DNA from: Naegleria gruberi
Taxonomy: Eukaryota
Strand: one strand, 5' to 3'
Assembly (NCBI GenBank): GCA_000004985.1
Contig: GG738888.1
DNA: 64,000 nucleotides
The position numbers were made by a program, and so were the translations under genes. The stretch's first letter is position 1. Each line of letters opens with the position of its first letter. Below the pieces are notes generated by a model. The model saw only the letters and a program-made list of their open reading frames with translations, ran no database searches and was not told the DNA's origin. Below, piece after piece: positions 19,647 to 38,607 of the stretch.

Positions 19647-20423
19647 ATGACTGATCATATCAAAGTTAGAACAGTTTTGGATGGTATTGTCAAGGTACCA
19701 AAATCCACTACTCTACAAACCATCACCGATCTCAAGAAGGGAATTTACAATTTACGAGGATGGGAAGCATCCACACAACATTTGTATCAGAATGGTACTG
19801 AGTTGAAGGATGATCAAACTCTTTCCGATTCACTTCTTTCCAAAGGCTTTGTATTATTAATTCCAATTAATCATCAACAGAGAAGATATAAGAGTAAGAT
19901 AGAGATTGAATCGGAGGCTCAACAATCAACAGCTAGTAGTGGTTCTAATTTATTGCCAACAACTCCAACATCATCAGGATCAACCGGATCAGTCTCTGAT
20001 CAATTGGCACAAATTATGCATGAATTTACATCAACTCATCCTTCAGGAAATACCACTACAACCACCACTGCAACAAGACCTCCAACACAACCTGTACAAA
20101 ATACTACACAACCAAGAACAACTGCACCACCAACGACAACTCAACCACCAAGACCAACCCAACCAAGTATTAGTGATATTCAAAGACAATTATTAATTGA
20201 TAATTTCCCTGTAGATGATGGTTTGGTAGGCATGGTTATGGAGTTGGGTTTTTCAAAGAGAATTGCAAAGAAGGCTCTCATTCTTCATAATCTCGACCCA
20301 GAAGCTGCAGTGGAATGGATATTTTCAAACGTTGATAATCCATACATATTGGAAAGTGAATTTAGTGTAGAAGAACTCATGCAATTAGCTCAAAAATACC
20401 AAAATGCAATGAGAGACGAATAG
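19647..20423 (+). CDS. Ubiquitin-like / UBA-domain protein with Thr/Pro-rich linker
   Basis: The N-terminal ~75 aa have a ubiquitin-like pattern. The C-terminus, VDDGLVGMVMELGFSKRIAKKALILHNLDPEAAVEWIFSN, is a classic UBA three-helix signature. Confidence 0.55.
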   Translation: MTDHIKVRTVLDGIVKVPKSTTLQTITDLKKGIYNLRGWEASTQHLYQNGTELKDDQTLSDSLLSKGFVLLIPINHQQRRYKSKIEIESEAQQSTASSGSNLLPTTPTSSGSTGSVSDQLAQIMHEFTSTHPSGNTTTTTTATRPPTQPVQNTTQPRTTAPPTTTQPPRPTQPSISDIQRQLLIDNFPVDDGLVGMVMELGFSKRIAKKALILHNLDPEAAVEWIFSNVDNPYILESEFSVEELMQLAQKYQNAMRDE

Positions 20424-20836
20424 AAGAGGAAACAATTACTGAGCAAATTATCTCTGTATTATTATCTCTTTTCAACAAAATGCAAAATGCATTACTGAAT
20501 ACAATTTTCTCCAATTAGGACTTGTTTTATTTCAATAACAATTATTTTAATGACGGAAAAGGAGGAACTGATGTACGAAACTGAACTCGCTTCTTAGCCA
20601 TTAATGAGTTTGGTTCATCTATAATAATCTGTGATTGCTCCATGATAATGCATGATCCTTACTTGATGGATTCTATTCTTCCATTAATGCCAACCACATT
20701 TTACAAAACAGGATCCTAAGAACCACAACTTATAAATGGTGATATCGGTATACAGAAATGTTATCAGCACAAGTCACCTTTCAATGTTTATCCTTACTCA
20801 ACAATGCGGATACAAGGCATTTGATTATATAATAGG

Positions 20837-22342
20837 ATGCAACCAACACACCACGACAATCCAAAACAACGACTGTCTTACAATTTAAAACGACATTATT
20901 GCCCCACAACTTCTAAAAAACAACACAACAATATGCAATCCAAATCCACATCCAAATTACCAACCACCAAGAGGTTATCTTTGCAAACAACCAATTCCAC
21001 ATCTCGCCTCAACAATGAACATAATAGACGCTCTCTCAATTCATCCACGACTAATTGTGATACATGTTCCACTACATCTAGTAGCACATCCTCAACCAAT
21101 ACTGATTCATTCTACTCAACTACAGAAGCAAGTATGCTGAGTGTGAGTATGGAATTGTTGGACACAATGATTGTTTATCCAGGTGGTAAACACTCAGTGT
21201 TACAACTCAGTGAAAAGCATCGTATATTGTTAGTATTTATCAAATGGTTTGGTTGTCCAATTTGTCAGAATGTCATTGATGACTTACAGAGATATCTGTC
21301 AAGCTTTTTATTGTTAAATATTGTTCCAGTAGTTTGTCATCAAGAAGATATTTCCAAGTTTTCAGAATACCTTTCGAATACTCAATTATTGCATTGTAGG
21401 ATAACCAAGGAAATGAAGAAGGAATTCTCTGTCAAGAAAGCTTCCCTCCTAAAACATGCCAAAGTAATGCCAAGCATGATCAAGTTAATGGTACAGAAAA
21501 AGAAGAAATTCTTCTTGCCTTCAGCTCATGAAATCAAAGGTATGGACATGCTTTCATCATTTGGCATGTATATTGTACATAAGGGACAAGTAACAAGCAG
21601 CTATTCATCTGATATTTTGAATGCAAGACCAGATTATGGTGTTTTCTTGTTCCACTTGAAAGAAGATCATTTATATTCAGATAGTTCATCTCCAGAAGAC
21701 TTTCTTCCAAGACTTTTAAAGCTATTCCCAAACATGAAGATGGTATTTGAGGAATTGAGAGAGAAGAGAAAACAACAACCTGAATTATCATCCCTTCCAC
21801 TCACACCTAGAGGATCTAATTTCAGTACTAGTTTTAAAAACAATGAAGAGGATGAATTCTCATTGAAAAATGTCTTGGAAAATGCAACCATGAGAACATT
21901 CTTCAAGGCCTTCCTATCCAATCAATATTGTTTGGAGCCAGTTATCTTTTATGAGCAAGTTAAAATGTTCAGAATGTTGTGTCAGAGAAGATCACCTGCC
22001 AGCCCATCATTCGAATATCAAATGGAGAATATTCTTGCACACAATTCACCTAGCTCAGCATTGGATTTGAAAATTCAAGAATGCAAACAGAAGGCCGAAT
22101 ACATAATTGATAACTTTTTGAAAGATACCTCCATGTTTCAAATCAATACAAGTGGAAAGTTATTAAGGAAATTATTCTCAGCCATTGAAGAGAAATGCTC
22201 TGATGAAACACTTTTTGATGATATTTTACAAGATATCATATCTAGCATGTTAGTGTTTCGTTTCGAAAATTTTATAGATTCACCTTTTTTCCAAGACATG
22301 ATTCATAGAGTACAATCGAATAAAGTTGTGACATCAAATTGA
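20837..22342 (+). CDS. Thioredoxin-like (PRXL2/AhpC-TSA-like, FGCPIC) + RGS domain protein
   Basis: LLVFIKWFGCPICQNVIDDL resembles the PRXL2/FAM213 redox motif R.FGC..C. The C-terminal half has an RGS signature: FSLKNVLENATMRTFFKAFLSNQYCLEPVIFYEQVKMF ... IIDNFLKDTSMFQIN... Confidence 0.5.
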   Translation: MQPTHHDNPKQRLSYNLKRHYCPTTSKKQHNNMQSKSTSKLPTTKRLSLQTTNSTSRLNNEHNRRSLNSSTTNCDTCSTTSSSTSSTNTDSFYSTTEASMLSVSMELLDTMIVYPGGKHSVLQLSEKHRILLVFIKWFGCPICQNVIDDLQRYLSSFLLLNIVPVVCHQEDISKFSEYLSNTQLLHCRITKEMKKEFSVKKASLLKHAKVMPSMIKLMVQKKKKFFLPSAHEIKGMDMLSSFGMYIVHKGQVTSSYSSDILNARPDYGVFLFHLKEDHLYSDSSSPEDFLPRLLKLFPNMKMVFEELREKRKQQPELSSLPLTPRGSNFSTSFKNNEEDEFSLKNVLENATMRTFFKAFLSNQYCLEPVIFYEQVKMFRMLCQRRSPASPSFEYQMENILAHNSPSSALDLKIQECKQKAEYIIDNFLKDTSMFQINTSGKLLRKLFSAIEEKCSDETLFDDILQDIISSMLVFRFENFIDSPFFQDMIHRVQSNKVVTSN

Positions 22343-22752: not shown

Positions 22753-24589
22753 ATGGATATTTTCTGTGTGTGTATAGCAGAATTTGATTTACTCAAAGGA
22801 AACACACTTTCACATGTGTATCCACCCGAACGAAGAACTATCCTAAACACTTTCACATCTCATTTGGGAGATTATTGTCTTCCGGATGGTGCTCACTATT
22901 TTGAAGAGGATGCTACCTATCTGGTAATTCCTTCAAATGTTGTGAGTTCTTCTCTGTATAGTTATTTGAAATCGGGTGCTTCTTCTAACAATGTTTCTAG
23001 TGTTTCGAATAGTGAGAATAGTTCAGTTGTTAATAATACACAACAAGTAATGGAATTTATTGAACCCTATGTGGATAAACCAATGTATGCTCATTGTTTA
23101 TTTAGAAATAAGAAGGATGAACGTGTCAAGAGAGGCGCCATTCAAAAGTCAATTATTTTATTTTCATCAAAACCATTATTTACTGTTTATGAGAATTTAT
23201 TGAGATTGGCATTGAATAGAATTTTGGATTTGGATAATATTCACTTACAGGTTAATGCTACAGCTACTAAGAAACAACCAGGTGAAGAATTAAACGAAAC
23301 GGATTTAAATCTTTTGAATCAAGTTCATGATCAGATTAATGATACTTTGAAAGAGTTTTATAACGAGTGCAGAAATTGTAACATGTTACAATTGAAATTA
23401 TTCCCAAATACTGATACTATTACTTTGAATATTCCACGTCAGATTGATCCATTCACACCAATTGCATTTACACATGGAACTTCTCTTGTACAATTAGTTC
23501 AATATTTTGGATTGGAAACAATGCTTGTTTGTTGGAATGCTCTATTATTGGATAAGAGAATTATGGTAATTGGTTCACCTGCCAAGTTGGTTTCACAGAT
23601 CTGTCTCACTCTTCCTCTCTTGATTTATCCATTCCAATATAATGTCAATCGTGTACATCCATATGTGCCACTCTCAGAGATGGATGATGTGTTATCTGCA
23701 ACTTCTAAAATTCCAGAATATATCATTGGTACGACGAATGCTCTCTTTGAAACTCAAGGAAAAAATCAGAGAACTCAATGGTGGGATGTTTGTTTGAGTG
23801 TCAATTCTAGAAAAGTTCAACTTGCTGAAAAGATGCCACCTCATTTCGGTGGCTCTGATTTGGCATTCCTCAATACAAATGATAGCGAAGACGTTCAAAT
23901 TGAAAAGCTCAATGCCTATCAGAAAGTATTCATGTTAAATGTCATTAGTGGAGTGAGAGATGGAAAGAGTGAACAATGGGTTCGTGATCAGTTCAAAACT
24001 CACAATCTCAAGTTTATTACCGAATTATTGACAAAGGGAAAGCTTACTGATATAGTTGAGAATGTTCCGTCTGATGTAGGTGTCGATCCACAAAAACAAC
24101 AAGTGGCTTTGAAGAATATTTCAGGAGGTCAATTGAAAAAGATTCAAAGACAGTTCATTGCTGAATCCTCCAAGTTTAGAACCTATGCTTTCAAACAATA
24201 TTCAACATTTAGAAGTTCACACTGTAGTGGAGATAAGAGTGATGACAAACAATCGGAATCTGTTCTCCAATTATTGCAATATTTACAGGTCGATAGGATT
24301 ATCAAGAAGCAAAAGCTTAAATACTTGTTTGATTTGGATAAGATGTTGTGTAATGTTGATCAAATTGACTTGTTATTGTCAGTTAGTGATAATTCAAGTA
24401 TTTTTACAACTATTAAGAATAACAAGTGGTTAATTGATGATAATAATCAGTGGAGAAAGTACAGTGCCAGTATTTTATCCCAATTGGCAATTAGTGTTAA
24501 AGGTCAAATTCAATTATTGTCTCTTCTTCCATCTATCAAACTCTTGACCGAAGATTCAATGCCAAATGTCAAGAGAATTGGTTATTACT
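22753..24589 (+). CDS. DENN-domain protein (AVL9/DENND6-like), 3'-truncated by assembly gap
   Basis: Core DENN signature LVCWNALLLDKRIMVIGSPAKLVSQICLTLPLLIYPFQYNVNRVHPYVPLSEMDDVLSATSKIPEYIIGTTNALF. The uDENN-like N-terminus is IFCVCIAEFDLLKGNTLSHVYPPE. The ORF runs into N's at 24590. Confidence 0.6.
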
Positions 24590-25984
24590 NNNNNNNNNNN
24601 NNNNNNNNNNNNNNNNNNNNNNNNNNNNNNNNNNNNNNNNNNNNNNNNNNNNNNNNNNNNNNNNNNNNNNNNNNNNNNNNNNNNNNNNNNNNNNNNNNNN
24701 NNNNNNNNNNNNNNNNNNNNNNNNNNNNNNNNNNNNNNNNNNNNNNNNNNNNNNNNNNNNNNNNNNNNNNNNNNNNNNNNNNNNNNNNNNNNNNNNNNNN
24801 NNNNNNNNNNNNNNNNNNNNNNNNNNNNNNNNNNNNNNNNNNNNNNNNNNNNNNNNNNNNNNNNNNNNNNNNNNNNNNNNNNNNNNNNNNNNNNNNNNNN
24901 NNNNNNNNNNNNNNNNNNNNNNNNNNNNNNNNNNNNNNNNNNNNNNNNNNNNNNNNNNNNNNNNNNNNNNNNNNNNNNNNNNNNNNNNNNNNNNNNNNNN
25001 NNNNNNNNNNNNNNNNNNNNNNNNNNNNNNNNNNNNNNNNNNNNNNNNNNNNNNNNNNNNNNNNNNNNNNNNNNNNNNNNNNNNNNNNNNNNNNNNNNNN
25101 NNNNNNNNNNNNNNNNNNNNNNNNNNNNNNNNNNNNNNNNNNNNNNNNNNNNNNNNNNNNNNNNNNNNNNNNNNNNNNNNNNNNNNNNNNNNNNNNNNNN
25201 NNNNNNNNNNNNNNNNNNNNNNNNNNNNNNNNNNNNNNNNNNNNNNNNNNNNNNNNNNNNNNNNNNNNNNNNNNNNNNNNNNNNNNNNNNNNNNNNNNNN
25301 NNNNNNNNNNNNNNNNNNNNNNNNNNNNNNNNNNNNNNNNNNNNNNNNNNNNNNNNNNNNNNNNNNNNNNNNNNNNNNNNNNNNNNNNNNNNNNNNNNNN
25401 NNNNNNNNNNNNNNNNNNNNNNNNNNNNNNNNNNNNNNNNNNNNNNNNNNNNNNNNNNNNNNNNNNNNNNNNNNNNNNNNNNNNNNNNNNNNNNNNNNNN
25501 NNNNNNNNNNNNNNNNNNNNNNNNNNNNNNNNNNNNNNNNNNNNNNNNNNNNNNNNNNNNNNNNNNNNNNNNNNNNNNNNNNNNNNNNNNNNNNNNNNNN
25601 NNNNNNNNNNNNNNNNNNNNNNNNNNNNNNNNNNNNNNNNNNNNNNNNNNNNNNNNNNNNNNNNNNNNNNNNNNNNNNNNNNNNNNNNNNNNNNNNNNNN
25701 NNNNNNNNNNNNNNNNNNNNNNNNNNNNNNNNNNNNNNNNNNNNNNNNNNNNNNNNNNNNNNNNNNNNNNNNNNNNNNNNNNNNNNNNNNNNNNNNNNNN
25801 NNNNNNNNNNNNNNNNNNNNNNNNNNNNNNNNNNNNNNNNNNNNNNNNNNNNNNNNNNNNNNNNNNNNNNNNNNNNNNNNNNNNNNNNNNNNNNNNNNNN
25901 NNNNNNNNNNNNNNNNNNNNNNNNNNNNNNNNNNNNNNNNNNNNNNNNNNNNNNNNNNNNNNNNNNNNNNNNNNNNNNNNNNNN
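24590..25984. other. Assembly gap (1395 N)
   Basis: Contiguous run of n. ORFs composed of X across it are artefacts. Confidence 1.
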
Positions 25985-26454
25985 TGACAATCTGTTATTT
26001 GTGTGGAATTTGATCGCATGTCAGTAGCATTAGAATTACTTAGAGGAAAGTGGACGAAATGGCAATAATCTGATGGCGTGATTGTTGACGCATGCATGTC
26101 ATTTTCCATTTGCTGATTTTTCGCTTTGTTCAATTCTTCCAAAATCGAATATTCACTATCAACATGCATATTAGGATTACTGACATGTGTCTCGACATGC
26201 ATCTTGACAGGTAAGCTCATTACACTAGCTAAACTATCCTTCTTAGATAAAACTCTAAATTGTGATGTTGGCTCTTGATGTTTCTCCACATGAAATACGA
26301 AATAATTATCCAAAAATCTTTCGTTTAATAAAGTCTTTCTTAAACGTTGAGTTTTCAGTTTGTTTTCACGTTTGGCTATTCGCATGGAAGTTCTCAATGT
26401 TTCGTCTATGAAGGAAACATCTCTTTGATTGAGTTTCGAATAAGGTTGTGGCAT
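25985..26454 (-). CDS. Divergent, longer member of the DET-KT-NRI / LFLLQLCCAL small-protein family (5' part only; 3' end lost in gap)
   Basis: The N-terminus, SFIDETLRTSMRIAKRENKLKTQRLRKTLLNERFLDNYFVFHVEKHQEPTSQFRVL, shares the family core motif with the downstream tandem copies. Confidence 0.5.
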
Positions 26455-26767
26455 GTTTTTTTTTAGTTGGAAAGTTTCAAACTTTCTTCATGCACAAGGG
26501 TAATATCGAACAAGTCTGGTTGTGAGCACATTCAAAATGGTCAATGGAAAGATTTTTTAAAGTACATGGTTATGGCATTATCCAAAAAGGGAACATTGAT
26601 GGTCAATTAAGGTTTTTGCACATCAATTCAAAGTTGCCTTGTATAGTGCAATGAGTTCTTCCACAATAATTGTTGGTTAATACTAGCAATCAAAAGTTAA
26701 AAGTTCCATTTTTGAACATTAACTTTAATACTGTTCTGTTGTCTGTTGTAAAAGTCAATTTTTATTA

Positions 26768-27049
26768 TTACAATGTCGCATGAATGAAATTATGCGTTTT
26801 ATTGTTCTGATAATGGCACTCTTCTAAAATAGAAGTTTGATACTTGCTAATTATTGAGGCACATGATTCGTTTCGTTTCTTATCGGTCTGTATGTGCTTA
26901 ATGAAGTTGAGAAAACTTTCGAAAGTACACGTTTCGGTTTCACCACTTTCATCATCTAATAAGAATGTGGAAAGTAGTGGTTTTTCTGCAATAATTCTTG
27001 TATAAATTTCAAGGTTTCCATTCAATTTGTTTGTGAACATTAACATCAT
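26768..27049 (-). CDS. Small hypothetical ORF (93 aa)
   Basis: ORF only. It lies between family members and has no recognised motif. Confidence 0.2.
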   Translation of the reverse strand: MMLMFTNKLNGNLEIYTRIIAEKPLLSTFLLDDESGETETCTFESFLNFIKHIQTDKKRNESCASIISKYQTSILEECHYQNNKTHNFIHATL

Positions 27050-27478
27050 TTTCTGGAAGAAAGGATTTAAAATCGTTCAGCCAAGTTACCATATCAAACA
27101 AATGTGTTCATAAATGCTTCAAACTAATAATGTTCTGCTAATCATTAAGCATTACCGGATAGATTATCATTTTTCTTCTGAAAGATAATCAAATTCAAAC
27201 TTATTAGAGATTGGAAAATAGTGGTATTGTTTCTGCCTCATTTCAGTGTCACTTTGCCAGCATGGAATTGTCACAACAGGATATGGAACTGTGTGCTTAA
27301 TGAAGTTTCCAATGAATGTTGATGAGAATCCTTTCGAATACAATCTGTTTCAGTTTCACTTAAAGTAGCGAGATGGGTAAAACAGAGATATTACTCAAAA
27401 GATTAGTTCTCAAAACACAAGATCCCATTCTAAATCGCAGATATGAAAATCATGAGAGTTGCGACTCAACTGAGATTT

Positions 27479-27937
27479 TTATTGGAAGAAGTTTCTGTTT
27501 TGTCCTTGATCCATAAGAGCACAACACAATTGCAGTAGAAATAAATCGAATTGTTGCTGATGGTTGTGGATAGTGTTTGTAGTTTCTTCTGGTTGTTGTG
27601 TTTCATTTCGAATGATATTTGTTTCGAATAATTGATTTTGCTCGTGGTTATAGTTTGCTGATTGCAAGTTGTTGATCTTTGGTGGAGAAGTGCTAACGTG
27701 TTTAGTCACAATTAATTGTTCACTTTCGAATGATTTGGATCCATCAATTCGAAAGACAACAGTTTCGTCCTTTTCAGGGTTCAAAACAAAGTAATTCTTC
27801 AATAAATCATCATTACACAATTGTTTTCTCAACTCGTGTTTGGCAGATATCTTTACCTTCTTTTGAATTCTATTCAAAGTTTTACAAGTTTCGTCCTTGA
27901 ACATTATTTGTTTCGTCTTCTTATTCGAATTATTCAT
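27479..27937 (-). CDS. Family member A: small basic protein (152 aa), novel tandem family
   Basis: MFKDETCKTLNRIQKKVKISAKHELRKQLCNDDLLKNYFVLNPEKDETVVFRI ... FDLFLLQLCCALMDQGQNRNFFQ. The N- and C-termini are conserved and the middle is variable and Q/H/P-rich. Confidence 0.65.
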   Translation of the reverse strand: MNNSNKKTKQIMFKDETCKTLNRIQKKVKISAKHELRKQLCNDDLLKNYFVLNPEKDETVVFRIDGSKSFESEQLIVTKHVSTSPPKINNLQSANYNHEQNQLFETNIIRNETQQPEETTNTIHNHQQQFDLFLLQLCCALMDQGQNRNFFQ

Positions 27938-28815
27938 CTTTGAGTTATTTTATTTAATATTAATTCAATGTCCAGCACACATGTTTCCATGATCAAAAGT
28001 TTGCCTTTATCAACTGAACCTGCCAAATTGTCCTTTTTGATATTGACAATCAGATGTGCTGCATTCAAACAATCACATTTACAAACTTAAAACGAAAGGA
28101 GATATTCGATATGGAAAATTGCAATTTCATTATGGAATTACGAGACAATTGAGGCTCTTTCAAATTTTGGCTTCATGACCTCGAGGGAAAACACTTTAAA
28201 AGGAATTATCTTTATTTGTCAAATTTTCATGGAAATGAGATTGTGGGAGCTCAATATCACAACATTTAAATAATTACAAATGTGAGAATGGGAAGAACAA
28301 GCAGATTCGACGAAAGGAACACTGAGGTAGTTTGATAGAGTTGATATTCTTTCGTGTGATGATGAACTAAACCAAGTAGCCCACAAGCTATGAGAGTCTT
28401 GGATGGTTTGCTGGTTGTGTTGTTTTAAAAAGAAAGAAAACAATTCATCTATGATATTAATCCACACTTCATATAAAATATCTAAAAATTATTGCTATTT
28501 TCTTAAAGTATCTAAAAATTATTAAAGTAATTTGCCTTGTAATTAAACAAATTTACTATATTGGTTATCATTTTACTTGCTCGTTAGATATCTAAGTTTC
28601 TTGTGATGCGTCCATTATTCGAAAGCCAAATCCTCCATGCATGTAAGCCAAAAAACTGTCATCCTTTCGAATGAACACACTTCAATTTTGCTAAAGCAGA
28701 TCAATAGTGCTTCAACTGATAATTGATTTAATGTTGGGTCTCTTCAATAATAATACGACATACCTAATCAACAAGTGCATTAACTGATGAGTGGGAGAAA
28801 TCTCAATTTACAGAT

Positions 28816-29262
28816 TTATTGAAAATTATTTCTGTTTTCTCCTTGATCTAATTGTGCACAACATAACTGCAGAAGGAATAGATTTAATTGTTGATGGTTG
28901 TGGAGAGAGTTTGAAGTTTCGTCTAGTTGGGGATCATTTCGAATGGTTTCTAATGATTGAACAAGTGGAATTGGCTCTTGGTTTTGATATGATACGTTGC
29001 TGATCTTTGGTGGAGAGGAGCTGACTTGTTTAGTTACAATTAATTGCTCATTTTCGAATGATTTAATGTCATCAATGCGAAAGACTGAAGTTTCGTCTTT
29101 TTCTCTATCCAAAACAAAGTAATTCTTCAATAATTCATCATTGCATAATTGTTTCCTGAGTTCGTGCTTGGCAGACTTTACTTTCTTCTTGTTTATTCTA
29201 TTCAATGTTTTACTAGTTTCGTCTGTGAACATTAGTTTCGGATTCTTTCCATTATTCATCAT
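28816..29262 (-). CDS. Family member B (148 aa)
   Basis: LMFTDETSKTLNRINKKKVKSAKHELRKQLCNDELLKNYFVLDREKDETSVFRI ... LNLFLLQLCCAQLDQGENRNNFQ. Most similar to member A. Confidence 0.65.
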   Translation of the reverse strand: MMNNGKNPKLMFTDETSKTLNRINKKKVKSAKHELRKQLCNDELLKNYFVLDREKDETSVFRIDDIKSFENEQLIVTKQVSSSPPKISNVSYQNQEPIPLVQSLETIRNDPQLDETSNSLHNHQQLNLFLLQLCCAQLDQGENRNNFQ

Positions 29263-30496
29263 GGAATCTTTTTGGTATTTTATTTGATCACGTAATTTGA
29301 GATTTTTGCTTCTGAACCTGTCAACAATTCAGCAAGGACTTTAGCACCACTTTCTATCAAGAAATTTCCAACAGAAAGAGTTGTATAGTTGACAGATATC
29401 AAAATTAAGGCACCTGACATGTGTCATGAGAGGAAGATAAGGTTGAATAAAAACGAAACATGTTAAATTTAGTTTATTTCTTTTTTGTTTATTTCTCGTA
29501 GAAGCTCCTCTTCTTTGCAGACCTCTATTTTCTCCATTACTCTTTAAGGAAATAATTAGTGACTTTCTTTTTAGAAACAAGAGTTTCGGATATCAAAATA
29601 TTAATAATAATACCTTTTCATTAAATAGGCAATCCACATTTTCCAAAAACACTTTAATCATGTAGAAAAGGGAGAATTCATTTATAGACTTTTCAGTCGA
29701 AATTTACCATTTGTTGATTTGTAATTATTCGAAAATGATTTATTTCAGAAATGATGAGTATCCTTTGTTATATTTCACTGAATAGTTTTTCAGAAAAAGT
29801 TTTCCACTATCACTCACTACATGTGTTGAAACACATTGTTGAACAAAGTTCTGAGTTATTTTTAATACTCTTCAATTCCACTTAATAATGCTTTCATTTA
29901 CAATTATTGTACATTAAAATTGTGTTTGTTGATGAATTGATGTAAATTCTTGCCAGGTTTGATGTGACAGACTGATTCGGTCTGGTTGACAATACATGAA
30001 CACACTACTAGCTGTTGATTGTTGATCCTCTAGATTCAATCTATTTGATTGTGGTATTAAAATGTTACATGACCACACCTTTTTTTGACACACATGTACA
30101 TGTAGCTGTTGTGTGCATGTTCAGCAATTTAACAAATATGATAACAATTGAAGCATGCTATATCTCTTTCGAAACCTCCACTATTAACTTTCTTCTAACA
30201 ACATTATTCCGGTGCTACATGTAAGCACACATGGTCAGCATGTTATTTCTTTTTTGTTTGAACGTATTGGAAGTCTACATGTTGTAACCTCAACAACATG
30301 ATGACTTTCTAATATTTCAATTTCACCAAAAGCAGTGAAATGACTCATTTTAAGCAGGCAAATTGCTTTTAAACGATCTAATGAATTTGTAACAGTGGTA
30401 TTATTCAAGATTAGTTTGCCTAAATCTGCCTTCTTCGCGTAATTGACTGGCCGAAAGTCATGGATGAGAAAATTTACAAATCTCCAACTTGCAGAT

Positions 30497-30946
30497 TTAT
30501 TGAAAGCAACTTCTTTTTTGCCCTTCTTGTTGGTGAATGAGTGCACAACACAATTGTAGAAGGAATTGGTTCATTTCTTGTTGGTTGTGGATGGTGTTTA
30601 TAATTTCGTCTGGTTGTGGATCATTTCGAATGGTTTCAGATACTTGTACTGGTGGATTTGGTTCATGGTGATGAGTTGATTGGACGTTAGTGACCATTGA
30701 GTGTTTAGTCACAATTACTTGCTCATTTTCTAATGGTGTGTTTTCAATTCGAAAGACAACAGTTTCGTCCTTTTCAGGGTTCAAAACAAAGTAATTCTTT
30801 AATAAATCATCATTACACAACTGTTTTCTCAATTCATGTTTGGCAGATATCTTTTCCTTCTTCTTATGTATTCTATTCAATGTTTTACAAGTTTCGTCCA
30901 TAAACTTTATAACTTTCTCCTTCTTTCTAATATTCGAATTTTTCAT
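30497..30946 (-). CDS. Family member C (149 aa)
   Basis: KFMDETCKTLNRIHKKKEKISAKHELRKQLCNDDLLKNYFVLNPEKDETVVFRIENTPLENEQ ... MNQFLLQLCCALIHQQEGQKRSCFQ. About 90 percent identical to member E, including flanking DNA. Confidence 0.65.
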   Translation of the reverse strand: MKNSNIRKKEKVIKFMDETCKTLNRIHKKKEKISAKHELRKQLCNDDLLKNYFVLNPEKDETVVFRIENTPLENEQVIVTKHSMVTNVQSTHHHEPNPPVQVSETIRNDPQPDEIINTIHNQQEMNQFLLQLCCALIHQQEGQKRSCFQ

Positions 30947-31379
30947 TGGTTTGAGAGTTTTTTATTTTAATTTGTACAGACCTGTCATCATCAGTACGTA
31001 TGTGAAGCATGAACAATTATAATTTGTAACTTCTAATCTGAGAATTTGAGATTATAGAGTTGAATTTGGCAATTAATTTTGTCCTTTTCAGAGCATCAAA
31101 TTGAAGTGTTTACATGGGTGATACAATGACATCTAACTGAAGTGTTTGACGTGTTTGTGAAATGAAGTTTATTCGAAATTAAACGTAATTTTCTAATTGT
31201 TCCATTCAGGATCAAGTCAAATTTGATTCTTGTTCATTGACTACGGTCCTTTTCATTGATGTTCACTAATCTTAATTTAGATGCCAATTTGAAAAGGCAA
31301 GTAAATGTTCTAAAACTATTGTTTATTGGATGGAGATGATAGCTCTTGGCCAGTTTCGTAAACTCGTCTTGGAAACGAA

Positions 31380-31810
31380 AAATCTTAAAGATTCAGAGAA
31401 ATTATTTCTGTTTTCTCCTTGCTCTAATTGTGCACAACATAACTGTGGAAGGAATAGATTGAATTGTTGGTTGTGGAGAGAGAGTTTGAAGTTTTGTCGA
31501 GTTGGGGATCATTTCTAAGTTGCCGATCTTTGGTGGAGAAATCGATAAAATAATAGAGAAACAATAAAGAGATTGAATAAATTGAGAGTTTATTGAAAGC
31601 ATAAATATGTGGGTGCCGTAGCTTTGTTGGCAGACAACATCTCATGTTGCAGTCCGGATGGCAATTGCCTTAATGATCATCTCCTTATTGTCCTATACCA
31701 AAAATGATTGTTGTTTAATGAAATATCGAAGTTAGTATATTGCTTTGAGTGTGCAATATTAGTTTCGTCTGTTATTCGAATTATTCATTGTGGAATCATT
31801 TTGATACGTA
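31380..31810 (-). pseudogene. Decayed B-type family copy (member D) with internal deletions
   Basis: 31390-31518 aligns to the 3' coding part of member B (attatttctgttttctccttg.tctaattgtgcacaacataactg..gaaggaatagatt.aattgttg...gttgtggagagag.tttgaagttt.gtc.agttggggatcatttc). 31740-31830 aligns to the B start region and 5' flank (gtttcgtctgt...cattgtggaatcattttgatacgtaatttgagatttttacttct). The middle is deleted and no intact ORF remains. Confidence 0.55.
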
Positions 31811-32501
31811 ATTTGAGATTTTTACTTCTTACCCTATCAACAAGCCACCAACTATCCAAAACAAAAGAAGAGCATGTGACCTATTGCATGTGTTGTTGCT
31901 TGATTTCACTGAATAGTTGTCTATATGTTGATCAGTTGATGTGTAATTTGTGCCAATCATCTTGATCCAAAAATGTGAAAGTTGTGTTTTTGAGATAATA
32001 ATTTAGAACTATAACATCTAGATGGGTTACATGTTGATATTCTAGATTCAATCACTATTCAATAATTCTTGGTATGATGTTAAGTGACTGGTTCATCTTT
32101 TTTGAGGCGTATTTGTTGCTGCTGTGCATGTTCAGCTGATATCCATAGCGATGAGGCAACATGCTATCTCATTCGAAACTAGACTTTTTACCAACATTAT
32201 TCGAAAGCTACATGTCAGTCAGTGAAAGGTCAGTCAGCTTGCTGTTGTTATTTCTTTTTTTTGTTAACGAATATTAATCCATCCACATGTTGTAATTTCC
32301 ACGCTCAACTTAACAGCATTCTAATATTTCAATTTCACCAAAAGCAATCATCTGACTCAATTTGAACAATCAATTGTTGCTTTTAAACGATCTAATCTAA
32401 TTAATACATGTGGTATTATTCAAGATTAGTTTGCCTAAATCTGCTAAATTGACTAGCCGAAAGTCGTTGGATTTATGGGAGAAATCTCCAAACTTGCAGA
32501 T

Positions 32502-32954
32502 TTATTGAAAGCAATTTCTGTTTTGCCCTTCTTGTTGGTGAATGAGAGCACAATACAATTGTAGAAGGAATAGGTTCATTTCTTGTTGGTTGTGGATGGT
32601 GTTTATAATTTCGTCTGGTTGTGGATCATTTCGAATGGTTTCAGATGCTTGTACTGGTGGAAGTGGTTCATGGTGGGCGTTATTGACTATTGAATGAGAA
32701 GTGCTGACATGTTTAGTCACAATTAATTGCTCATTTTCTAATGGTGTGTTTTCAATTCGAAAGACAACAGTTTCGTCCTTTTCTGGGTTCAAAACAAAGT
32801 AATTCTTTAATAATTCATCATGACACAACTGTTTTCTCAGTTCATGTTTGACAGACATCTTTACCTTCTTCTTTTGTATTCTATTCAATGTTTTACAAGT
32901 TTCGTCCATAAACTTTAGACCTTTCTCCTTCTTTCTAATATTCGAATTTTTCAT
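32502..32954 (-). CDS. Family member E (150 aa)
   Basis: KFMDETCKTLNRIQKKKVKMSVKHELRKQLCHDELLKNYFVLNPEKDETVVFRIENTPLENEQ ... MNLFLLQLYCALIHQQEGQNRNCFQ. Confidence 0.65.
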   Translation of the reverse strand: MKNSNIRKKEKGLKFMDETCKTLNRIQKKKVKMSVKHELRKQLCHDELLKNYFVLNPEKDETVVFRIENTPLENEQLIVTKHVSTSHSIVNNAHHEPLPPVQASETIRNDPQPDEIINTIHNQQEMNLFLLQLYCALIHQQEGQNRNCFQ

Positions 32955-33243
32955 TGGTTTGAGAGTTTTTTTATTTTAATTTGTATAGACCTGTCATCAT
33001 CAGTTACAAGACCTCCAATATGTAAGCGACGCATGAACCAGATTGTTTTCATTCCTTGTAACGACACATATCTGATGAATTTGAGATTTTTGTTTTGAAT
33101 TGAGTAATTAATTTTGTCCTTTTCAGAGTAGAGACATCAAAGTGTTTCTAAAACAATACCAATAAAATTCCTTATTTGATTCTTGTTTGGTTTTAAGCAG
33201 TTTTTGAAAAATGTTGTATAATAGAAAGTAGACGAAAGTTTGT

Positions 33244-33648
33244 TCAGTTTAATAATTCTTTTATTGATATTGAAGTTCTGACTACTCGTGTAATGTTTCT
33301 ATTAAAATTTGACTTATTCATTAATTGCGAGCTATTTTGATTAGTTTGCCATGTTTCAGGTTTAGTTTCTAATAGTTTCTTTTCTTTTTTTCGTTTTGGA
33401 GGTTTCTTTGTTATTCCCTTCTTGTTGCAGACCTTCCACTTTTCAAGAGTCTCAGTCTTGGTCACTATCATTCTATTAGAAGAATAATTATTGGACGAAT
33501 CCCCTTTCTTTGGTCTTCCTCTTCTTCTTTTCATTGTTTCTTCTACGCCATTACTGTTTTTTGGTGGTGGCGAGAATTCCACCATAGAGAATGTGTGATA
33601 ATTATTAATCTTGTAGGAAGATGCAGATGCTGTATTGATTAGTGTCAT
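33244..33648 (-). CDS. AT-hook (RGRP) basic protein, hypothetical
   Basis: MKRRRGRPKKGDSS is a canonical AT-hook core, R-G-R-P flanked by K/R. A Lys-rich tail, KKPPKRKKEKK, follows. The gene lies inside the tandem family array. Confidence 0.4.
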   Translation of the reverse strand: MTLINTASASSYKINNYHTFSMVEFSPPPKNSNGVEETMKRRRGRPKKGDSSNNYSSNRMIVTKTETLEKWKVCNKKGITKKPPKRKKEKKLLETKPETWQTNQNSSQLMNKSNFNRNITRVVRTSISIKELLN

Positions 33649-34038
33649 TTTTGTTTTTTGAAAAAGAAAATTACATGAAACAGGTTTTCATTAAAAAGGC
33701 AATCCATAAAGTTTCTTTTTAATGGGAGATTAGGTGCATTTCAGTCATGTCCACTTTAAGATATCAACACACATTCTTTGAAATGCTTTCTCGAAGGAGC
33801 ATTTCATGTAATGCAGCTATTTAATACCGTTACATTACAATACGATTGAAAAGGCAAGTAATTGTTCCAAAAACAGTTGGAAATGAAATCTAAATGGAGT
33901 GTTTTAAAGGAGATGATAGCTCTTGGCCAGATTGGTATTTTTATGCCTATGGTTAAACACCCGACCCGGTTATTCAAGATTGAGAAAAATTGAGTGTGGG
34001 TGGAAACTTGGTTTCGAATAATTGTTTATTGGTGAATG

Positions 34039-34485
34039 TTAGTATTCTTGTTGGTATTGTAAGAGTAAGCTGTACAGTTGAAGGAGAAAGATCATTTCTT
34101 GTTGATAGGTAGAATTATCCATTTGTTGATTTGTATTCGAAACTGTGAAATGCTGATGATCCACAGCATGTGTATTCATTTCATCTTGTCTATTTTCTTG
34201 ATTTCTCTCCTCAATACTATTCGATTCTCCAACTAGTCTAACATGTTGAGTTACCACACTATTTCCGATTTTAAACTCTTTATCTATTCGAAAGGTTGTC
34301 AATTGATCCTTCCTATTATCAAAAACAAAGTAATTCTTTAAAATTTCATCATTCTGTAATTGCTTTCTCAATCCTGGATATTTACTTTTTGGTTTCCTCT
34401 TGATAATCTTGTCTGTGGTCTTTACTGTTTCGTCTATTATCGAAAATTGTTTCGAACCTTTCTTCTGGTTTTGACCACTTGGCAT
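34039..34485 (-). CDS. Family member F (148 aa), divergent
   Basis: FSIIDETVKTTDKIIKRKPKSKYPGLRKQLQNDEILKNYFVFDNRKDQLTTFRID ... MIFLLQLYSLLLQYQQEY. It keeps the core motif and the C-terminal FLLQL. Confidence 0.55.
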   Translation of the reverse strand: MPSGQNQKKGSKQFSIIDETVKTTDKIIKRKPKSKYPGLRKQLQNDEILKNYFVFDNRKDQLTTFRIDKEFKIGNSVVTQHVRLVGESNSIEERNQENRQDEMNTHAVDHQHFTVSNTNQQMDNSTYQQEMIFLLQLYSLLLQYQQEY

Positions 34486-34858
34486 TGTTGTTTAATTTTT
34501 TATTGAATTACATCTCCTCACAGCGCTTTAGTTGAGGATTAGTTTCGTGAAAATATTATTTATTTGCAGACCGAAACCATGAAACCTCAAATTTGGTCAT
34601 TGATTTCCAAACTGTTATGAAATTGTAAAGATTATTTTTAATCTTACCCGTTTCTCTTGAGGATATTGCCTTTAAAAGTCGTTATAATGCAGTTTTATTC
34701 TATATGGAGTCCACATTGTCTTCAATCTTTCGAATATAGACTGTTCAGCATGATGATGAAATAGAAGTGTTTCAATAAACATTTAGCTAATCTTCAGCAT
34801 GTTGTGATGATTCTAGTTGGTTGTGGTGTAATTATGCAATTGAATACAATCAGCTCTA

Positions 34859-35269
34859 TTATCCGTCTTCTTCAATGTGATGGAGAAATAGTAATTTTAG
34901 GAGAGCTTTTCGTTGTTCGTTGTNNNNNNNNNNNNNNNNNNNNNNNNNNNNNNNNNNNNNNNNNNNNNNNNNNATTGAAACTCTTCTGTTTCTTAAAGTT
35001 TCGGATGATTTAGTTGCGACTGCATGCTGTTGATCCTGTCCATCGGCAGCTTGGTGTTGCTTAAGATGATATTGGTTCATTATTTTTGGTTGTTGATTGG
35101 TTTCGGCAAGATTACACTGGAAAGTTTGCATGGTTTCGGATTGTTGTGTTGGTGAAGGAAGTCGAAAGTGAACTTCATTTCTCTGAATCCCACTTTGAGG
35201 GTCTAAATTATTGTCTTCCAGACATGCACTAGAATCTAATGAGAAACTAGACGAAAGTTCATCATCCAT
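34859..35269 (-). CDS. Gln-rich hypothetical protein interrupted by a 50-N gap
   Basis: The ORF spans the N-run at 34924..34973. The C-terminus, KALLKLLFLHH, weakly resembles the family Leu-rich tail. The model is unreliable. Confidence 0.25.
   Translation of the reverse strand: MDDELSSSFSLDSSACLEDNNLDPQSGIQRNEVHFRLPSPTQQSETMQTFQCNLAETNQQPKIMNQYHLKQHQAADGQDQQHAVATKSSETLRNRRVSXXXXXXXXXXXXXXXXXXNEQRKALLKLLFLHHIEEDG
34924..34973. other. Assembly gap (50 N)
   Basis: Run of n. Confidence 1.
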
Positions 35270-35641
35270 TCTCTAAGAAAACCTCTTGGGAAGAATTTAC
35301 TTTTAATGTGTTGATTTGTTTTTTTCAAAGTGTTTTTATTGTAATACGAAAGGAACTTTGCGTTGCCAAACACCTAAACAATTTATGAAACCTGCCAAAC
35401 TGAAATTCTTGACCGAAGAATAGAATAATTTTATCTGAATGTGCTGAATAATGAAGTTAATGTTTGGCAGCCCCATTCCAATGTATTATGACAGGTTCGG
35501 TAACTTTGACAACTTCATTAGAATGTATTTAGTTTTCATAACCTCTCTATCCTAAATTGGTAATAGACAAATACGTTGAACAATAGCAATTGGTATAATA
35601 ATAACAACATTAAGAAGTTAACGAATTCGTTAGAAACAATT

Positions 35642-36430: not shown

Positions 36431-38005
36431 TTATCTATTTGGTATGTGAGGTGTAAAGTCCAAATCTTGAACGTTATATTCAATCTTATGGATGGTTGTT
36501 TCATATCTATCACCATTCTTTGAAAAGAATGAATTATCCTTTACTCCAGAATAAGATGAATAGTCCACAATGGTGCTTCCCTCAGCATCTCCTGCAATAC
36601 AGAATGATCTGTCGAATGCTTTCAATAATTTATAATCTCCTTCACCTGCATCAGTTTCAAAATATCCTATCGAATTCAACCAGTGACAAAATTCATCCAA
36701 TGTTTTTCTATTCTCAAATATCATTGTATCCAATTTGGTAAATTCATTCTCGTAATCCAAATTTTGAATGAATGCCTTTAAAGTTTCAGTATAGTAGAAT
36801 TTTCTACTCGTGTTACCCTTCTTTAAATCGGAAAAGTAATTGTCAAAGGTCTTTCCACTTGGTCTACTCAATGAGAGAGCATCCAAAACTTGAGAGACAA
36901 AGTGTTGACAATTACAATCGAGTTGGCTATATGTCTTTTTAGCATTAAATGTACAACAAATATCTGTAATTTTCAAGAAGGCATCCATAATTTGATTCTT
37001 GGTTCTCAAAAAACCAAGATCAATAACAGCAATTGAATTGGATGATTCAATATTCTTATCAGTTCTAACACTAATCAGAGAGTTATTGTACCAATCAAAT
37101 TTCCACTCTCCAATCATGATTCCTGTATGGAGAATACCAAATTCAGTAGTAACAATCTTGGACAATACGCTTCTAATAAAATTATTTCCTTGCAATTCTG
37201 AAATGACCAATTTAACAGCAACATAAGGAGGCTTTTCCATCTTTCTTCTATTTGGATTTGCCAAAATTCTACTGCAAAATGTATTGTACAAGAATCTATC
37301 CTTGCATGTTAAATTTTGGGCATCCAAATCCAAATCACCAGTAAGATTAGCACTCTTGAATGATTTTCCTCTCTCATTGAGAGTCTTGTAATATTCAGAG
37401 AGATTCTTTTTACAATGTTCAATTCCTTGTTTCTCCCAATCATTAAGTTTTTCCTCATCAAATGGAGTTCTCGAATCAAAATCACTATCATCCGATGGTA
37501 AATGTACATTATTTGAATTAGTGCCAATATCACTCTGAGTTCCAGTCGTTGGAACAGAATCAAATTGATAAGCTGGATTATATCTCTGTTCCATTGCAGC
37601 AAAAGTATTCTTCCTACCAGAGCCATTCTCAATATCCTTTCTAATCTTGGCCTCAACCACTGAATCCACAAACGAACTCATACTTCCCTGATCAACATCA
37701 TATAATTTAGAAAGCCTTGCAATAATATATTGTTTTTCATCATCAATTGTTGAACGATCTCCGGTAACAATAGCCTTGGCCAAATCCTTAAAAACATGAC
37801 CATGAAACATTGTATTATTGATCAATAACTTCTCAATCAAGGAATTTTGATATTTAAATTCTCTCATCAGATTTATCAAATCATTATTATCACAATTATT
37901 AATTGGCTTATCAGTAATTGCTCGGGTTGGTACAGAATTTGCAGAATCGGAACCCTTTCCTACATTGAATGATTCGAGGGAATCTTGAGAAAAGTAATTG
38001 CCCAT
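36431..38005 (-). CDS. N-myristoylated (MGNYFSQ) LRAT/PLAAT-like (NlpC/P60 superfamily) domain protein, paralog 1
   Basis: Starts MG..(S). The central region FGILHTGIMIGEWKFDWYNNSLISV ... LDCNCQHFVSQVLDAL parallels PLAAT/LRAT H-box (HWAIYVGDGYVVHL) and the catalytic NCEHFV motif. Collinear with the 38853..40367 paralog. Confidence 0.5.
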   Translation of the reverse strand: MGNYFSQDSLESFNVGKGSDSANSVPTRAITDKPINNCDNNDLINLMREFKYQNSLIEKLLINNTMFHGHVFKDLAKAIVTGDRSTIDDEKQYIIARLSKLYDVDQGSMSSFVDSVVEAKIRKDIENGSGRKNTFAAMEQRYNPAYQFDSVPTTGTQSDIGTNSNNVHLPSDDSDFDSRTPFDEEKLNDWEKQGIEHCKKNLSEYYKTLNERGKSFKSANLTGDLDLDAQNLTCKDRFLYNTFCSRILANPNRRKMEKPPYVAVKLVISELQGNNFIRSVLSKIVTTEFGILHTGIMIGEWKFDWYNNSLISVRTDKNIESSNSIAVIDLGFLRTKNQIMDAFLKITDICCTFNAKKTYSQLDCNCQHFVSQVLDALSLSRPSGKTFDNYFSDLKKGNTSRKFYYTETLKAFIQNLDYENEFTKLDTMIFENRKTLDEFCHWLNSIGYFETDAGEGDYKLLKAFDRSFCIAGDAEGSTIVDYSSYSGVKDNSFFSKNGDRYETTIHKIEYNVQDLDFTPHIPNR

Positions 38006-38526: not shown

Positions 38527-38607
38527 TGCAGAAGGTGGGATTTGAACCCACGAAGCTTGCGCAGTAGAACTTGAGTCTACCCCCTTTGACCACTCGGGAA
38601 CCCCTGC
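38527..38607 (-). tRNA. tRNA-Leu(CAA): tRNA-Leu (anticodon CAA), type II, no intron
   Basis: Minus strand: GCAGGGG-TT-CCC-GAGTGGTCAAA-GGG-G-GTAGA-CTCAAGT-TCTAC-(variable arm)-GTGGG-TTCAAAT-CCCAC-CTTCTGC-A. Acceptor, anticodon and T stems all pair. A T5 run lies 2 nt downstream at 38520-38524. Confidence 0.9.

What the first reader, a model, noticed from the sequence alone, without database searches (positions are those of the whole stretch)
28790..33130. Higher-order duplication inside the array: the two-gene block (B-type + C-type) is duplicated as (D pseudogene + E)
Members C and E are about 90 percent identical at the DNA level. The identity extends through the 5' flank (ggtttgagagttttttattttaatttgta.agacctgtcatcatcagt ... 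aattaattttgtccttttcagag) and about 500 bp of 3' flank (tgcagatttattgaaagcaa.ttct.ttttgcccttcttgttggtgaatgag ... caaaagca...ttcaatttcaccaaaagca). Likewise, the pseudogene D region (31380-31830) is colinear with the member B gene and flanks. The region therefore looks like a recent duplication of a roughly 3.3-kb two-gene block. One copy (D) then decayed through deletions. This points to ongoing unequal crossing-over.
Basis: seen in the sequence. Interest (0 to 1): 0.55.

Follow-up and report, generated by a model that had tools for sequence, protein, structure and literature searches.

The report
Old two-gene tandem duplication in Naegleria
Inside a cluster of small, uncharacterised Naegleria gruberi genes, a block of about 2.6 kb carrying two of the genes was copied head-to-tail long ago, one copy has since died and another pair has been partly re-homogenised; this is real but ordinary gene-family evolution.

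Summary
The window is Naegleria gruberi NEG-M. It carries a same-strand array of at least eight members of a family found only in Naegleria and Willaertia, with no Pfam or PDB match.

Unit 1 (~28781-31359: gene B, spacer, gene C, spacer) is colinear with unit 2 (~31362-33936: pseudogene D, spacer, gene E, spacer). D is nearest to B and C nearest to E (bootstrap 0.999-1.0). Homology runs through 570 bp of 3' flank and at least 245 bp of 5' flank of C/E.

- The unit is ~2.57 kb, not 3.3 kb.
- The duplication is not recent. Non-coding divergence is 0.14-0.31 substitutions per site.
- The junction (~31359-31363) joins F-type 3' flank to B-type sequence with no visible homology, so classic unequal crossing-over between family members is not shown.

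The C/E coding regions are far more alike (dS 0.05, dN/dS 1.1) than their flanks (Fisher p = 1e-8). This suggests later gene conversion.

D lost its stop codon, has a stop after nine codons, and has 204 bp of unrelated sequence in place of its conserved domain.

An assembly artefact is unlikely. Other scaffolds of the same assembly list the order A'-C'-G'-F', which hints at copy-number variation, but their DNA could not be fetched. Protein function is unknown. Interest is low.

The parts
25985..26454 (-). Member Z of the family. Its 3' part is lost in the 1395-N assembly gap.
   Evidence: tblastn hits. An environmental contig, L001, gives a full-length 182-aa orthologue and is 96.8% identical in DNA.
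27479..27937 (-). Member A (NAEGRDRAFT_71130). It lies outside the duplicated block.
   Evidence: ORF and accession. dS to B, C and E is 0.55-0.71. The A-B spacer has no match to the other spacers.
28781..31359 (.). Duplicated unit, copy 1 (U1): B + spacer + C + spacer, ~2.58 kb.
   Evidence: Colinear segments. The left limit comes from the junction alignment.
28816..29262 (-). Member B (NAEGRDRAFT_71131), intact, 148-aa ORF.
29336..29926 (.). Spacer segment of 591 bp present in U1. U2 has only 74 bp at this position (31852-31925), a net difference of 517 bp.
   Evidence: Only 29765-29787 has a counterpart, at 31896-31918.
29927..30496 (.). 3' flank of C, homologous to the 3' flank of E (31926-32501).
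   Evidence: BLAST E = 3e-55. Identity is 80.8% in the near part and 74.6% in the far part.
30497..30946 (-). Member C (NAEGRDRAFT_71132), intact, 149 aa.
   Evidence: Compared with E: dS 0.051, dN 0.056.
30470..30994 (.). High-identity tract between C and E (its partner is ~32475-33003). This is the candidate gene-conversion tract.
   Evidence: 100-bp bins are 91-97% identical inside the tract and 79-88% just outside it. Fisher p = 1.4e-8 for CDS vs flanks, and p = 0.002 for synonymous sites vs flanks.
30947..31192 (.). 5' flank of C, homologous to the 5' flank of E (32955-33241).
   Evidence: BLAST E = 2.5e-27; alignment.
31289..31359 (.). Copy of the 3'-flank element of F (33846-33936). It forms the right end of U1.
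   Evidence: Two exact 22-mers are shared, with 0 expected in 100 shuffles; alignment.
31359..31363 (.). Duplication junction: F-type 3' flank on the left, B-type sequence on the right.
   Evidence: Three-way alignment. B's own left flank (28740-28780) does not resemble the F flank.
31362..33936 (.). Duplicated unit, copy 2 (U2): D + spacer + E + spacer including G, ~2.57 kb.
31375..31851 (-). Pseudogene D, a non-processed B-type copy. The ATG is kept but a stop follows after 9 codons. The original stop codon is lost. There is a ~52-bp deletion.
   Evidence: Alignment to B; frame translations; tblastn fragments only at 31398-31519; D is nearest to B at bootstrap 1.0 and 0.999.
31542..31745 (.). 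Centre of D: 204 bp unrelated to B or to anything else in the window. It replaces the part that encodes the conserved domain.
   Evidence: z = -0.46 against a control of z = 20.7; no BLAST hit below E = 0.26.
31926..32501 (.). 3' flank of E, the partner of 29927-30496.
32502..32954 (-). Member E (NAEGRDRAFT_71133), intact, 150 aa.
33244..33648 (-). G (NAEGRDRAFT_71134), an unrelated small basic orphan ORF containing RRGRPKK. It is present in the E-F spacer and absent from the colinear C-D spacer.
33846..33936 (.). 3'-flank element of F, the partner of 31289-31359. It forms the right end of U2.
34039..34485 (-). Member F (NAEGRDRAFT_71135), divergent, outside the block.

Best explanation
The window is a Naegleria gruberi NEG-M scaffold. 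It carries a same-strand tandem array (Z, A, B, C, D, E, F, H) of small intronless genes from a family known only from Naegleria and Willaertia.

Within the array, one unit was duplicated head-to-tail in a single event. The unit ran from ~35 bp downstream of the B-type gene, through the B-C spacer and the C-type gene, to ~100 bp downstream of F. This is inferred from colinearity. The new junction joins F-type 3' flank to B-type 3' flank with no recognisable homology. That points to an illegitimate or microhomology-mediated tandem duplication rather than crossing-over between misaligned family members.

The event is old: 0.14-0.31 substitutions per non-coding site.

The copies then diverged by large insertions and deletions:
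- U2 has only 74 bp where the U1 B-C spacer has 591 bp, a net difference of 517 bp.
- The ~500-bp G region is present only in U2.

The second B-type copy (D) became a non-processed pseudogene.

Much later, the C and E coding regions plus a few tens of bp on each side were re-homogenised, most likely by non-allelic gene conversion. Since then they have drifted apart at dN/dS of about 1, with two in-frame indels in the variable centre.

Shown directly: the colinearity, the nearest-neighbour relations, D's lesions, and the contrast in divergence between CDS and flanks. Inferred: a single event, the mechanism at the junction, and gene conversion.
For: - Organism and gene identities.
- Colinear homology through genes and spacers. 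E-values run from 0 to 3e-6 and shuffle z-scores from 14 to 54.
- Two exact shared 22-mers define the right end of the unit.
- D is nearest to B and C nearest to E, bootstrap 0.999-1.0.
- Older pairs A/B/C/E have dS 0.55-0.84 and dN/dS ~0.3.
- Divergence between the units: B-D K = 0.14; C/E flanks K = 0.17, 0.22 and 0.31; C/E dS = 0.051, dN/dS = 1.10. CDS vs flanks p = 1.4e-8; synonymous sites vs flanks p = 0.002.
- D's lesions.
- Junction alignment.
- No N-run between 25985 and 34923, so both units and the junction lie in one contig.
Against: - The B/D and C/E homology segments are not joined by unbroken homology. U1 has 591 bp between them and U2 has 74 bp.
- Whether G was deleted from U1 or inserted into U2 is unresolved. 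Homology stops exactly at G's stop codon.
- The low C/E coding divergence could come from a lower local mutation rate rather than conversion. Only 4 synonymous differences underlie dS.
- After ~0.2 substitutions per site, short homology at the junction could have been erased, so a homology-driven origin cannot be excluded.
- No second strain or read-level data could be examined.
Confidence: 0.8

Rival explanations
1. The block arose by classic unequal crossing-over (non-allelic homologous recombination) between misaligned family members, and this process is still active in the array.
For: - The array consists of same-strand paralogues, which are the substrate for such exchange.
- The breakpoints lie just 3' of two family genes, B and F.
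- A 43.5-kb scaffold of the same assembly has consecutive gene numbers A'(76319), C'(76320), G'(76321), F'(76322), with no annotated B' or E'.
- C' is C-type along its whole length. This fits a D+E deletion by exchange in the nearly identical stretch just upstream of the C and E start codons (46 of 47 bases alike at 30947-30994).
Against: - At the junction, B's own left flank and F's 3' flank show no similarity, and D is not a chimeric gene.
- The duplication is old (K 0.14-0.31).
- The alternative scaffolds are known only from protein annotation. Z is not annotated there either, so missing gene models are weak evidence.
- Genes to the right of the array have no copy of 90% identity or more on those scaffolds, so they may not be allelic.
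Confidence: 0.25
2. Assembly artefact: two divergent haplotypes of one B-C unit were stitched in tandem, or the repeat was wrongly expanded.
For: - N. gruberi NEG-M is heterozygous (Fritz-Laylin et al. 2010, as cited in PMC9928731).
- The assembly contains extra scaffolds with close copies of array genes.
Against: - There is no gap between the units.
- The units differ by 15-25% in non-coding DNA, by indels of ~0.5 kb each and by a destroyed gene. The extra-scaffold copies of C are 97-99% identical to C in protein and are clearly C-type, not E-type.
- The C-D spacer is itself a diverged copy of the E-F spacer, not an identical one, so it exists as separate DNA.
- Sanger-read overlap at this level of divergence would not merge or expand the copies (own knowledge).
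Confidence: 0.04
3. Two independent single-gene duplications (B to D, and C to E) happened to land in the same order.
For: The B/D and C/E homology segments are separated by non-homologous DNA in U1. C/E coding divergence (0.05) differs from B/D divergence (0.14).
Against: - The order, orientation and spacing are the same in both units.
- In U2 the two homology segments are only 74 bp apart.
- C/E flank divergence (0.17-0.31) brackets B/D divergence (0.14).
- The C-D spacer is colinear with the E-F spacer up to a single junction.
Confidence: 0.05

Closest known systems
Tandem segmental duplication units with interrupted homology blocks and converted coding regions, as in the human alpha-globin alpha2/alpha1 units (X, Y, Z boxes). 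This comparison is from my own knowledge.
   Same: Two adjacent units in the same orientation. Homology blocks are separated by unit-specific indels. Coding regions are much more alike than the flanks, as expected from gene conversion. A dead copy sits in the cluster.
   Different: Here the unit carries two different paralogues of one family. One of the four genes is dead. The junction shows no homology. The proteins are of unknown function. The converted pair evolves at dN/dS of about 1.
Non-processed (duplicated) pseudogenes
   Same: D keeps its genomic position, both flanks and its orientation. It has disabling lesions: an early stop, loss of the stop codon, a deletion, and a replaced centre.
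   Different: The centre is replaced by 204 bp of unrelated DNA of unknown origin, not simply deleted.
Uncharacterised protein family of Naegleria and Willaertia with the N-terminal motif FxDET...LRKxLxNxxLLKNYF. Examples: N. gruberi D2VQ17-D2VQ22, N. fowleri FDP41_000113, N. lovaniensis C9374_006064, Willaertia magna ABK040_010135.
   Same: A, B, C, E, F, Z and H share the invariant DET, LRK and NYF positions. Profile searches retrieve these proteins.
   Different: The array members are the shortest forms (~150 aa). They have a Q/N-rich variable centre and a C-terminal LFLLQLCCAL helix. There is no Pfam model, no PDB relative and no confident fold.

Membership tests
Tandem block (segmental) duplication | Two adjacent copies in the same orientation with colinear homology that includes intergenic DNA | tested here: met
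   Spacer homology has E = 3e-55 and 2.5e-27; flank z-scores are 14-24.
Tandem block (segmental) duplication | Genes at corresponding positions are each other's nearest relatives | tested here: met
   D is nearest to B at 1.000 and 0.999; C is nearest to E at 1.000.
Tandem block (segmental) duplication | Comparable divergence of all parts of the unit (one event) | tested here: inconclusive
   B-D is 0.14 and C/E flanks are 0.17-0.31, which are compatible. The C/E CDS is only 0.05, which needs a second process.
Tandem block (segmental) duplication | A single definable junction | tested here: met
   F-type flank meets B-type sequence at ~31359-31363.
Origin by unequal crossing-over between paralogues (NAHR) | The breakpoints lie in mutually homologous sequence, or a chimeric gene sits at the junction | tested here: not met
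   B's left flank (28740-28780) does not resemble F's 3' flank. D is B-type throughout its recognisable parts. Short homology could have eroded since the event.
Ongoing copy-number change | Different unit numbers between haplotypes or strains | not testable with these tools
   Only the protein annotation of other scaffolds is available (A'-C'-G'-F'). Their DNA is not retrievable. The metagenome scans found nothing.
Non-allelic gene conversion | A tract of raised identity, including at synonymous sites, bounded by more diverged flanks | tested here: met
   Bins are 91-97% identical inside ~30470-30994 and 79-88% outside. dS is 0.051 against flank K of 0.17-0.31; p = 0.002 and 1.4e-8.
Non-allelic gene conversion | Tree incongruence between the tract and its flanks, using orthologues as outgroup | not tested
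   No orthologous C/E sequences from another species or strain were available.
Non-processed pseudogene | Retains its genomic context and flanks, and carries disabling lesions | tested here: met
Assembly artefact (haplotype or collapsed repeat) | Near-identical copies, or a gap or low-quality join at the junction | tested here: not met
   The only N-runs are at 24590-25984 and 34924-34973. The units are 15-25% diverged in non-coding DNA.
Any curated protein family (Pfam-A) | A match above the gathering score | tested here: not met
   Best scores are 10-17 bits against cut-offs of 21-27.

The most novel reading that the evidence does not exclude
The array is a structurally polymorphic, fast-evolving locus. 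In this reading, haplotypes of one heterozygous, probably sexual amoeba carry different numbers of units (A-B-C-D-E-G-F versus A'-C'-G'-F'). The youngest pair evolves at dN/dS >= 1, with indels in a variable centre. This would mark a lineage-specific family of small basic (possibly nuclear) proteins under diversifying selection, for example in self/non-self or mating-type-like recognition.
Probability: 0.08. Interest if true: 0.55.

Novelty: new member of a known kind. Interest (0 to 1): 0.2.

Why it matters
The finding matters mainly as housekeeping:
- The duplication is real and is not an assembly error.
- It corrects the unit size, age and boundaries.
- It gives a worked example of how a lineage-specific gene family grows in a heterolobosean: block duplication, death of one copy, large indels, and later homogenisation of one pair.

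The family itself is worth a note. It is restricted to Naegleria and Willaertia, has no recognisable fold and has a strongly conserved N-terminal motif. If the other scaffolds really carry fewer units, this locus would be a convenient marker for recombination and heterozygosity in an organism whose sexuality is only inferred.

Tried and rejected
- A global MAFFT alignment of the two blocks misaligned the left half because of the length difference. I replaced it with anchored pairwise alignments.
- A 'relic of G' in the B-C spacer (29597-29636 vs 33667-33706) has E = 0.006, the same as chance hits elsewhere in the window, and has no tblastn support. I dropped it.
- The first Nei-Gojobori run gave C-E dS 0.147 and dN/dS 0.70. 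The central indel region was misaligned. I redid it with in-frame gaps.
- Function of the proteins:
  - Pfam gave nothing.
  - A PDB sequence profile search gave nothing.
  - The AlphaFold models had pLDDT 58 and 68 and pTM 0.21-0.24.
  - Foldseek against the PDB gave no hit below E = 2.9.
- Rfam found nothing in 26000-35500. ARAGORN found four tRNA genes in the window, none of them inside the array.
- DNA of the alternative N. gruberi scaffolds is not on record.
- Environmental or other-strain arrays: the contigs L001-L004 are too short. Both JGI metagenome scans were empty.
- Literature: none of the gene IDs appear in the full-text library. The 2010 genome paper is not held.

Full report
**What the window is**

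The sequence is AT-rich (about 33% G+C) and contains two N-gaps, at 24590-25984 and 34924-34973. The ORFs in the flagged region match annotated 'predicted proteins' of Naegleria gruberi NEG-M exactly. They lie on a 351,708-bp scaffold and are numbered NAEGRDRAFT_71130 to 71135.

All lie on the minus strand:

| Name | Coordinates | Note |
|---|---|---|
| Z | 25985-26454 | cut by the gap |
| A | 27479-27937 | intact |
| B | 28816-29262 | intact |
| C | 30497-30946 | intact |
| D | ~31375-31851 | fragment |
| E | 32502-32954 | intact |
| G | 33244-33648 | unrelated small basic ORF |
| F | 34039-34485 | divergent |

A further member, H, spans the 50-N gap.

**Checking the observation**

Self-BLAST shows C/E at 30241-31093 vs 32246-33128 (82.9% over 896 columns) and D vs B at 31385-31518 vs 28808-28943 (87.7%). 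With sensitive settings, four colinear segments link 28808-31111 to 31385-33147.

Identity of C vs E by segment:

| Segment | Identity | Shuffle z |
|---|---|---|
| CDS | 94.7% of aligned pairs (89% with gap columns) | 54 |
| 5' flank, 165 bp | 84.8% | 17 |
| 3' flank, first 256 bp | 80.8% | 24 |
| 3' flank, next 314 bp | 74.6% | 14 |

One detail is wrong: the first part of the quoted 3' string is the end of the coding sequence.

D aligns to B at both ends, but its central 204 bp (31542-31745) is unrelated (z = -0.46; the B-vs-C control gives z = 20.7).

In alignments of the gene ends plus flanks, D is nearest to B in 100% and 99.9% of bootstraps. C is nearest to E in 100%.

**The true extent of the unit**

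The C-D spacer is colinear with the E-F spacer. Segment 30947-31192 matches 32955-33241 (E = 2.5e-27). Segment 31289-31359 matches 33846-33936 and includes two exact 22-mers, where none is expected by chance.

Between these two segments, U2 holds the G ORF and its upstream region (~500 bp), and U1 has ~96 bp.

The units are therefore ~28781-31359 and ~31362-33936, about 2.57 kb each and not 3.3 kb. The A-B spacer has no counterpart in any other spacer, so this is a discrete duplication and not general periodicity of the array.

The other large difference is that U2 has only 74 bp where the U1 B-C spacer has 591 bp (29336-29926).

**The junction**

A three-way alignment shows that D's left flank is F-type up to ~31359 and B-type from ~31363. 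B's own left flank (28740-28780) bears no resemblance to the F flank, and D is not a gene chimera.

As far as can still be seen, the breakpoints did not lie in homologous sequence. This fits an illegitimate or microhomology-mediated tandem duplication better than unequal crossing-over between misaligned family members. Erosion of a short homology cannot be excluded.

**Age, and a second process**

Jukes-Cantor divergence between the units:

| Comparison | K |
|---|---|
| B-D, 3' part | 0.14 |
| C/E 5' flank | 0.17 |
| C/E near 3' flank | 0.22 |
| C/E far 3' flank | 0.31 |

For scale, an environmental contig that is nearly conspecific differs from the window by 3.2%. Older pairs in the array have dS 0.55-0.84 and dN/dS about 0.3. 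The duplication is therefore the youngest in the array, but it is not recent.

The C and E coding regions stand out. With in-frame gaps placed correctly, there are 4 synonymous and 19 non-synonymous differences (dS 0.051, dN 0.056, dN/dS 1.10). Mismatches are spread evenly over the three codon positions.

Coding sites differ far less than flanks (23/435 vs 72/410, p = 1.4e-8). Synonymous sites alone also differ less than flanks (p = 0.002).

The high-identity tract is about 30470-30994. It covers the CDS, ~27 bp beyond its 3' end and ~48 bp upstream.

The simplest reading is a later non-allelic gene conversion between C and E, followed by relaxed or diversifying evolution. A local mutational cold spot is the alternative. 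The synonymous count is small.

**The pseudogene**

D keeps an ATG, but a stop follows after nine codons. The B-type stop codon is lost (TTTCAATAA has become TTCTCTGAA). About 52 bp are deleted. The part that should encode the conserved domain is replaced by 204 bp with no match in the window. D is a non-processed pseudogene.

**Is it an assembly artefact?**

This is unlikely, for three reasons:
- Both units and the junction lie in one gap-free contig.
- The units differ by 15-25% in non-coding DNA and by two ~0.5-kb indels.
- The close copies of C found on other scaffolds of the same assembly (P0010, P0011) are C-type and 97-99% identical to C. Allelic-level divergence is thus far smaller than the C-E difference.

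**Hints of structural variation, not verifiable here**

A 43.5-kb scaffold carries consecutive gene numbers A' (76319), C' (76320), G' (76321, 93% identical to G) and F' (76322). It has no annotated B' or E'.

A 15.5-kb scaffold carries a fused RAD23/DENN gene model and C''.

C' is C-type over its whole length yet sits next to G'. This would fit loss of D+E by exchange in the nearly identical stretch just upstream of the C and E start codons (46 of 47 bases alike at 30947-30994).

Three cautions apply. Annotation is incomplete (Z is not annotated either). Genes to the right of the array have no copy of 90% identity or more on these scaffolds. The DNA could not be fetched. Both metagenome scans were empty.

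N. gruberi heterozygosity is reported in the literature (PMC9928731, citing Fritz-Laylin et al. 2010).

**The proteins**

Profile searches find relatives only in Naegleria gruberi, N. fowleri, N. lovaniensis, Willaertia magna and unnamed environmental sequences.

The shared feature is an N-terminal module, FxDET...(basic)...LRKxLxNxxLLKNYF, followed by a beta hairpin. The array members add a Q/N-rich variable centre and a C-terminal LFLLQLCCAL helix.

There is no Pfam match and no PDB sequence relative. The AlphaFold models have low confidence (pLDDT 58 and 68), and no fold match was found.

My weak guess, based on the basic stretch, is a small nuclear or nucleic-acid-associated protein. Nothing here tests it.

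**Verdict**

The size, the age and the 'ongoing unequal crossing-over' claim are not supported as stated.

New points from this analysis:
- The real unit boundaries and the junction.
- The junction's lack of homology.
- The G-region indel.
- The replacement of D's centre by unrelated DNA.
- Evidence for later conversion of the C/E coding regions.

This is ordinary gene-family dynamics in an uncharacterised lineage-specific family, and its interest is low.

Noticed in passing
window 34800-35269 (-), spanning the N gap 34924-34973: An eighth family member, H. Its N-terminal 98 aa match the long forms P0017 and P0023 (E = 2e-8) and end at 'NRRVS' right at the gap. After the gap the frame reads NNEKLS*NYYFSITLKK, so there is an in-frame TAA inside the conserved LLKNYF motif. 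H is either a pseudogene or carries a base-call error next to the gap.
   Followed up: partly
window 25985-26454 (-); L001 1-2536: Member Z is cut by the 1395-N gap and does not appear among the NCBI proteins found. An ENA metagenome contig (ERZ929261) is 96.8% identical over 818 bp and gives a full-length 182-aa Z. It could fill part of the gap.
   Followed up: partly
window 33244-33648 (-): G (NAEGRDRAFT_71134) is a 134-aa basic orphan with an AT-hook-like RRGRPKK. In 5.8 billion proteins, the only relative is a 93%-identical copy on the 43.5-kb scaffold (NAEGRDRAFT_76321). Its ORF plus upstream region is exactly the segment missing from the colinear C-D spacer.
   Followed up: partly
other scaffolds of the same assembly (43.5 kb and 15.5 kb); no window coordinates: Close copies of the array genes exist elsewhere in the assembly: A', C', G' and F' with consecutive gene numbers, and C'' next to a fused RAD23/DENN model. 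That makes three C-type sequences in one assembly. Genes to the right of the array have no such copies. Whether these are alleles or a second locus is unknown.
   Followed up: partly
window 36431-38005 (-) and 38853-40367 (-): Two neighbouring genes for PPPDE-domain proteins of 524 and 504 aa are paralogues (44% identity over 517 aa, E = 7e-153). A tRNA-Leu(CAA) gene lies between them at 38527-38607. This is another tandem duplication in the window.
   Followed up: no
window 31542-31745: The 204 bp that replace the centre of pseudogene D have normal base composition (33% G+C). They have no match in the window, no ORF and no Rfam hit. Their origin is unknown.
   Followed up: partly
window 29985-30042 vs 19903-19960 (opposite strand): A 60-bp match at 86.7% (E = 9e-11) links the B-C spacer to the low-complexity T/Q-rich coding part of the RAD23-like gene. 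It is probably simple-sequence similarity.
   Followed up: no
window 22753-24589 (+) and 19647-22342 (+): The DENN-domain gene runs into the large N gap. On the 15.5-kb scaffold, one 1397-aa gene model (NAEGRDRAFT_60073) clusters with both the RAD23-like and the DENN proteins, which suggests a fused or mis-predicted gene model there.
   Followed up: no
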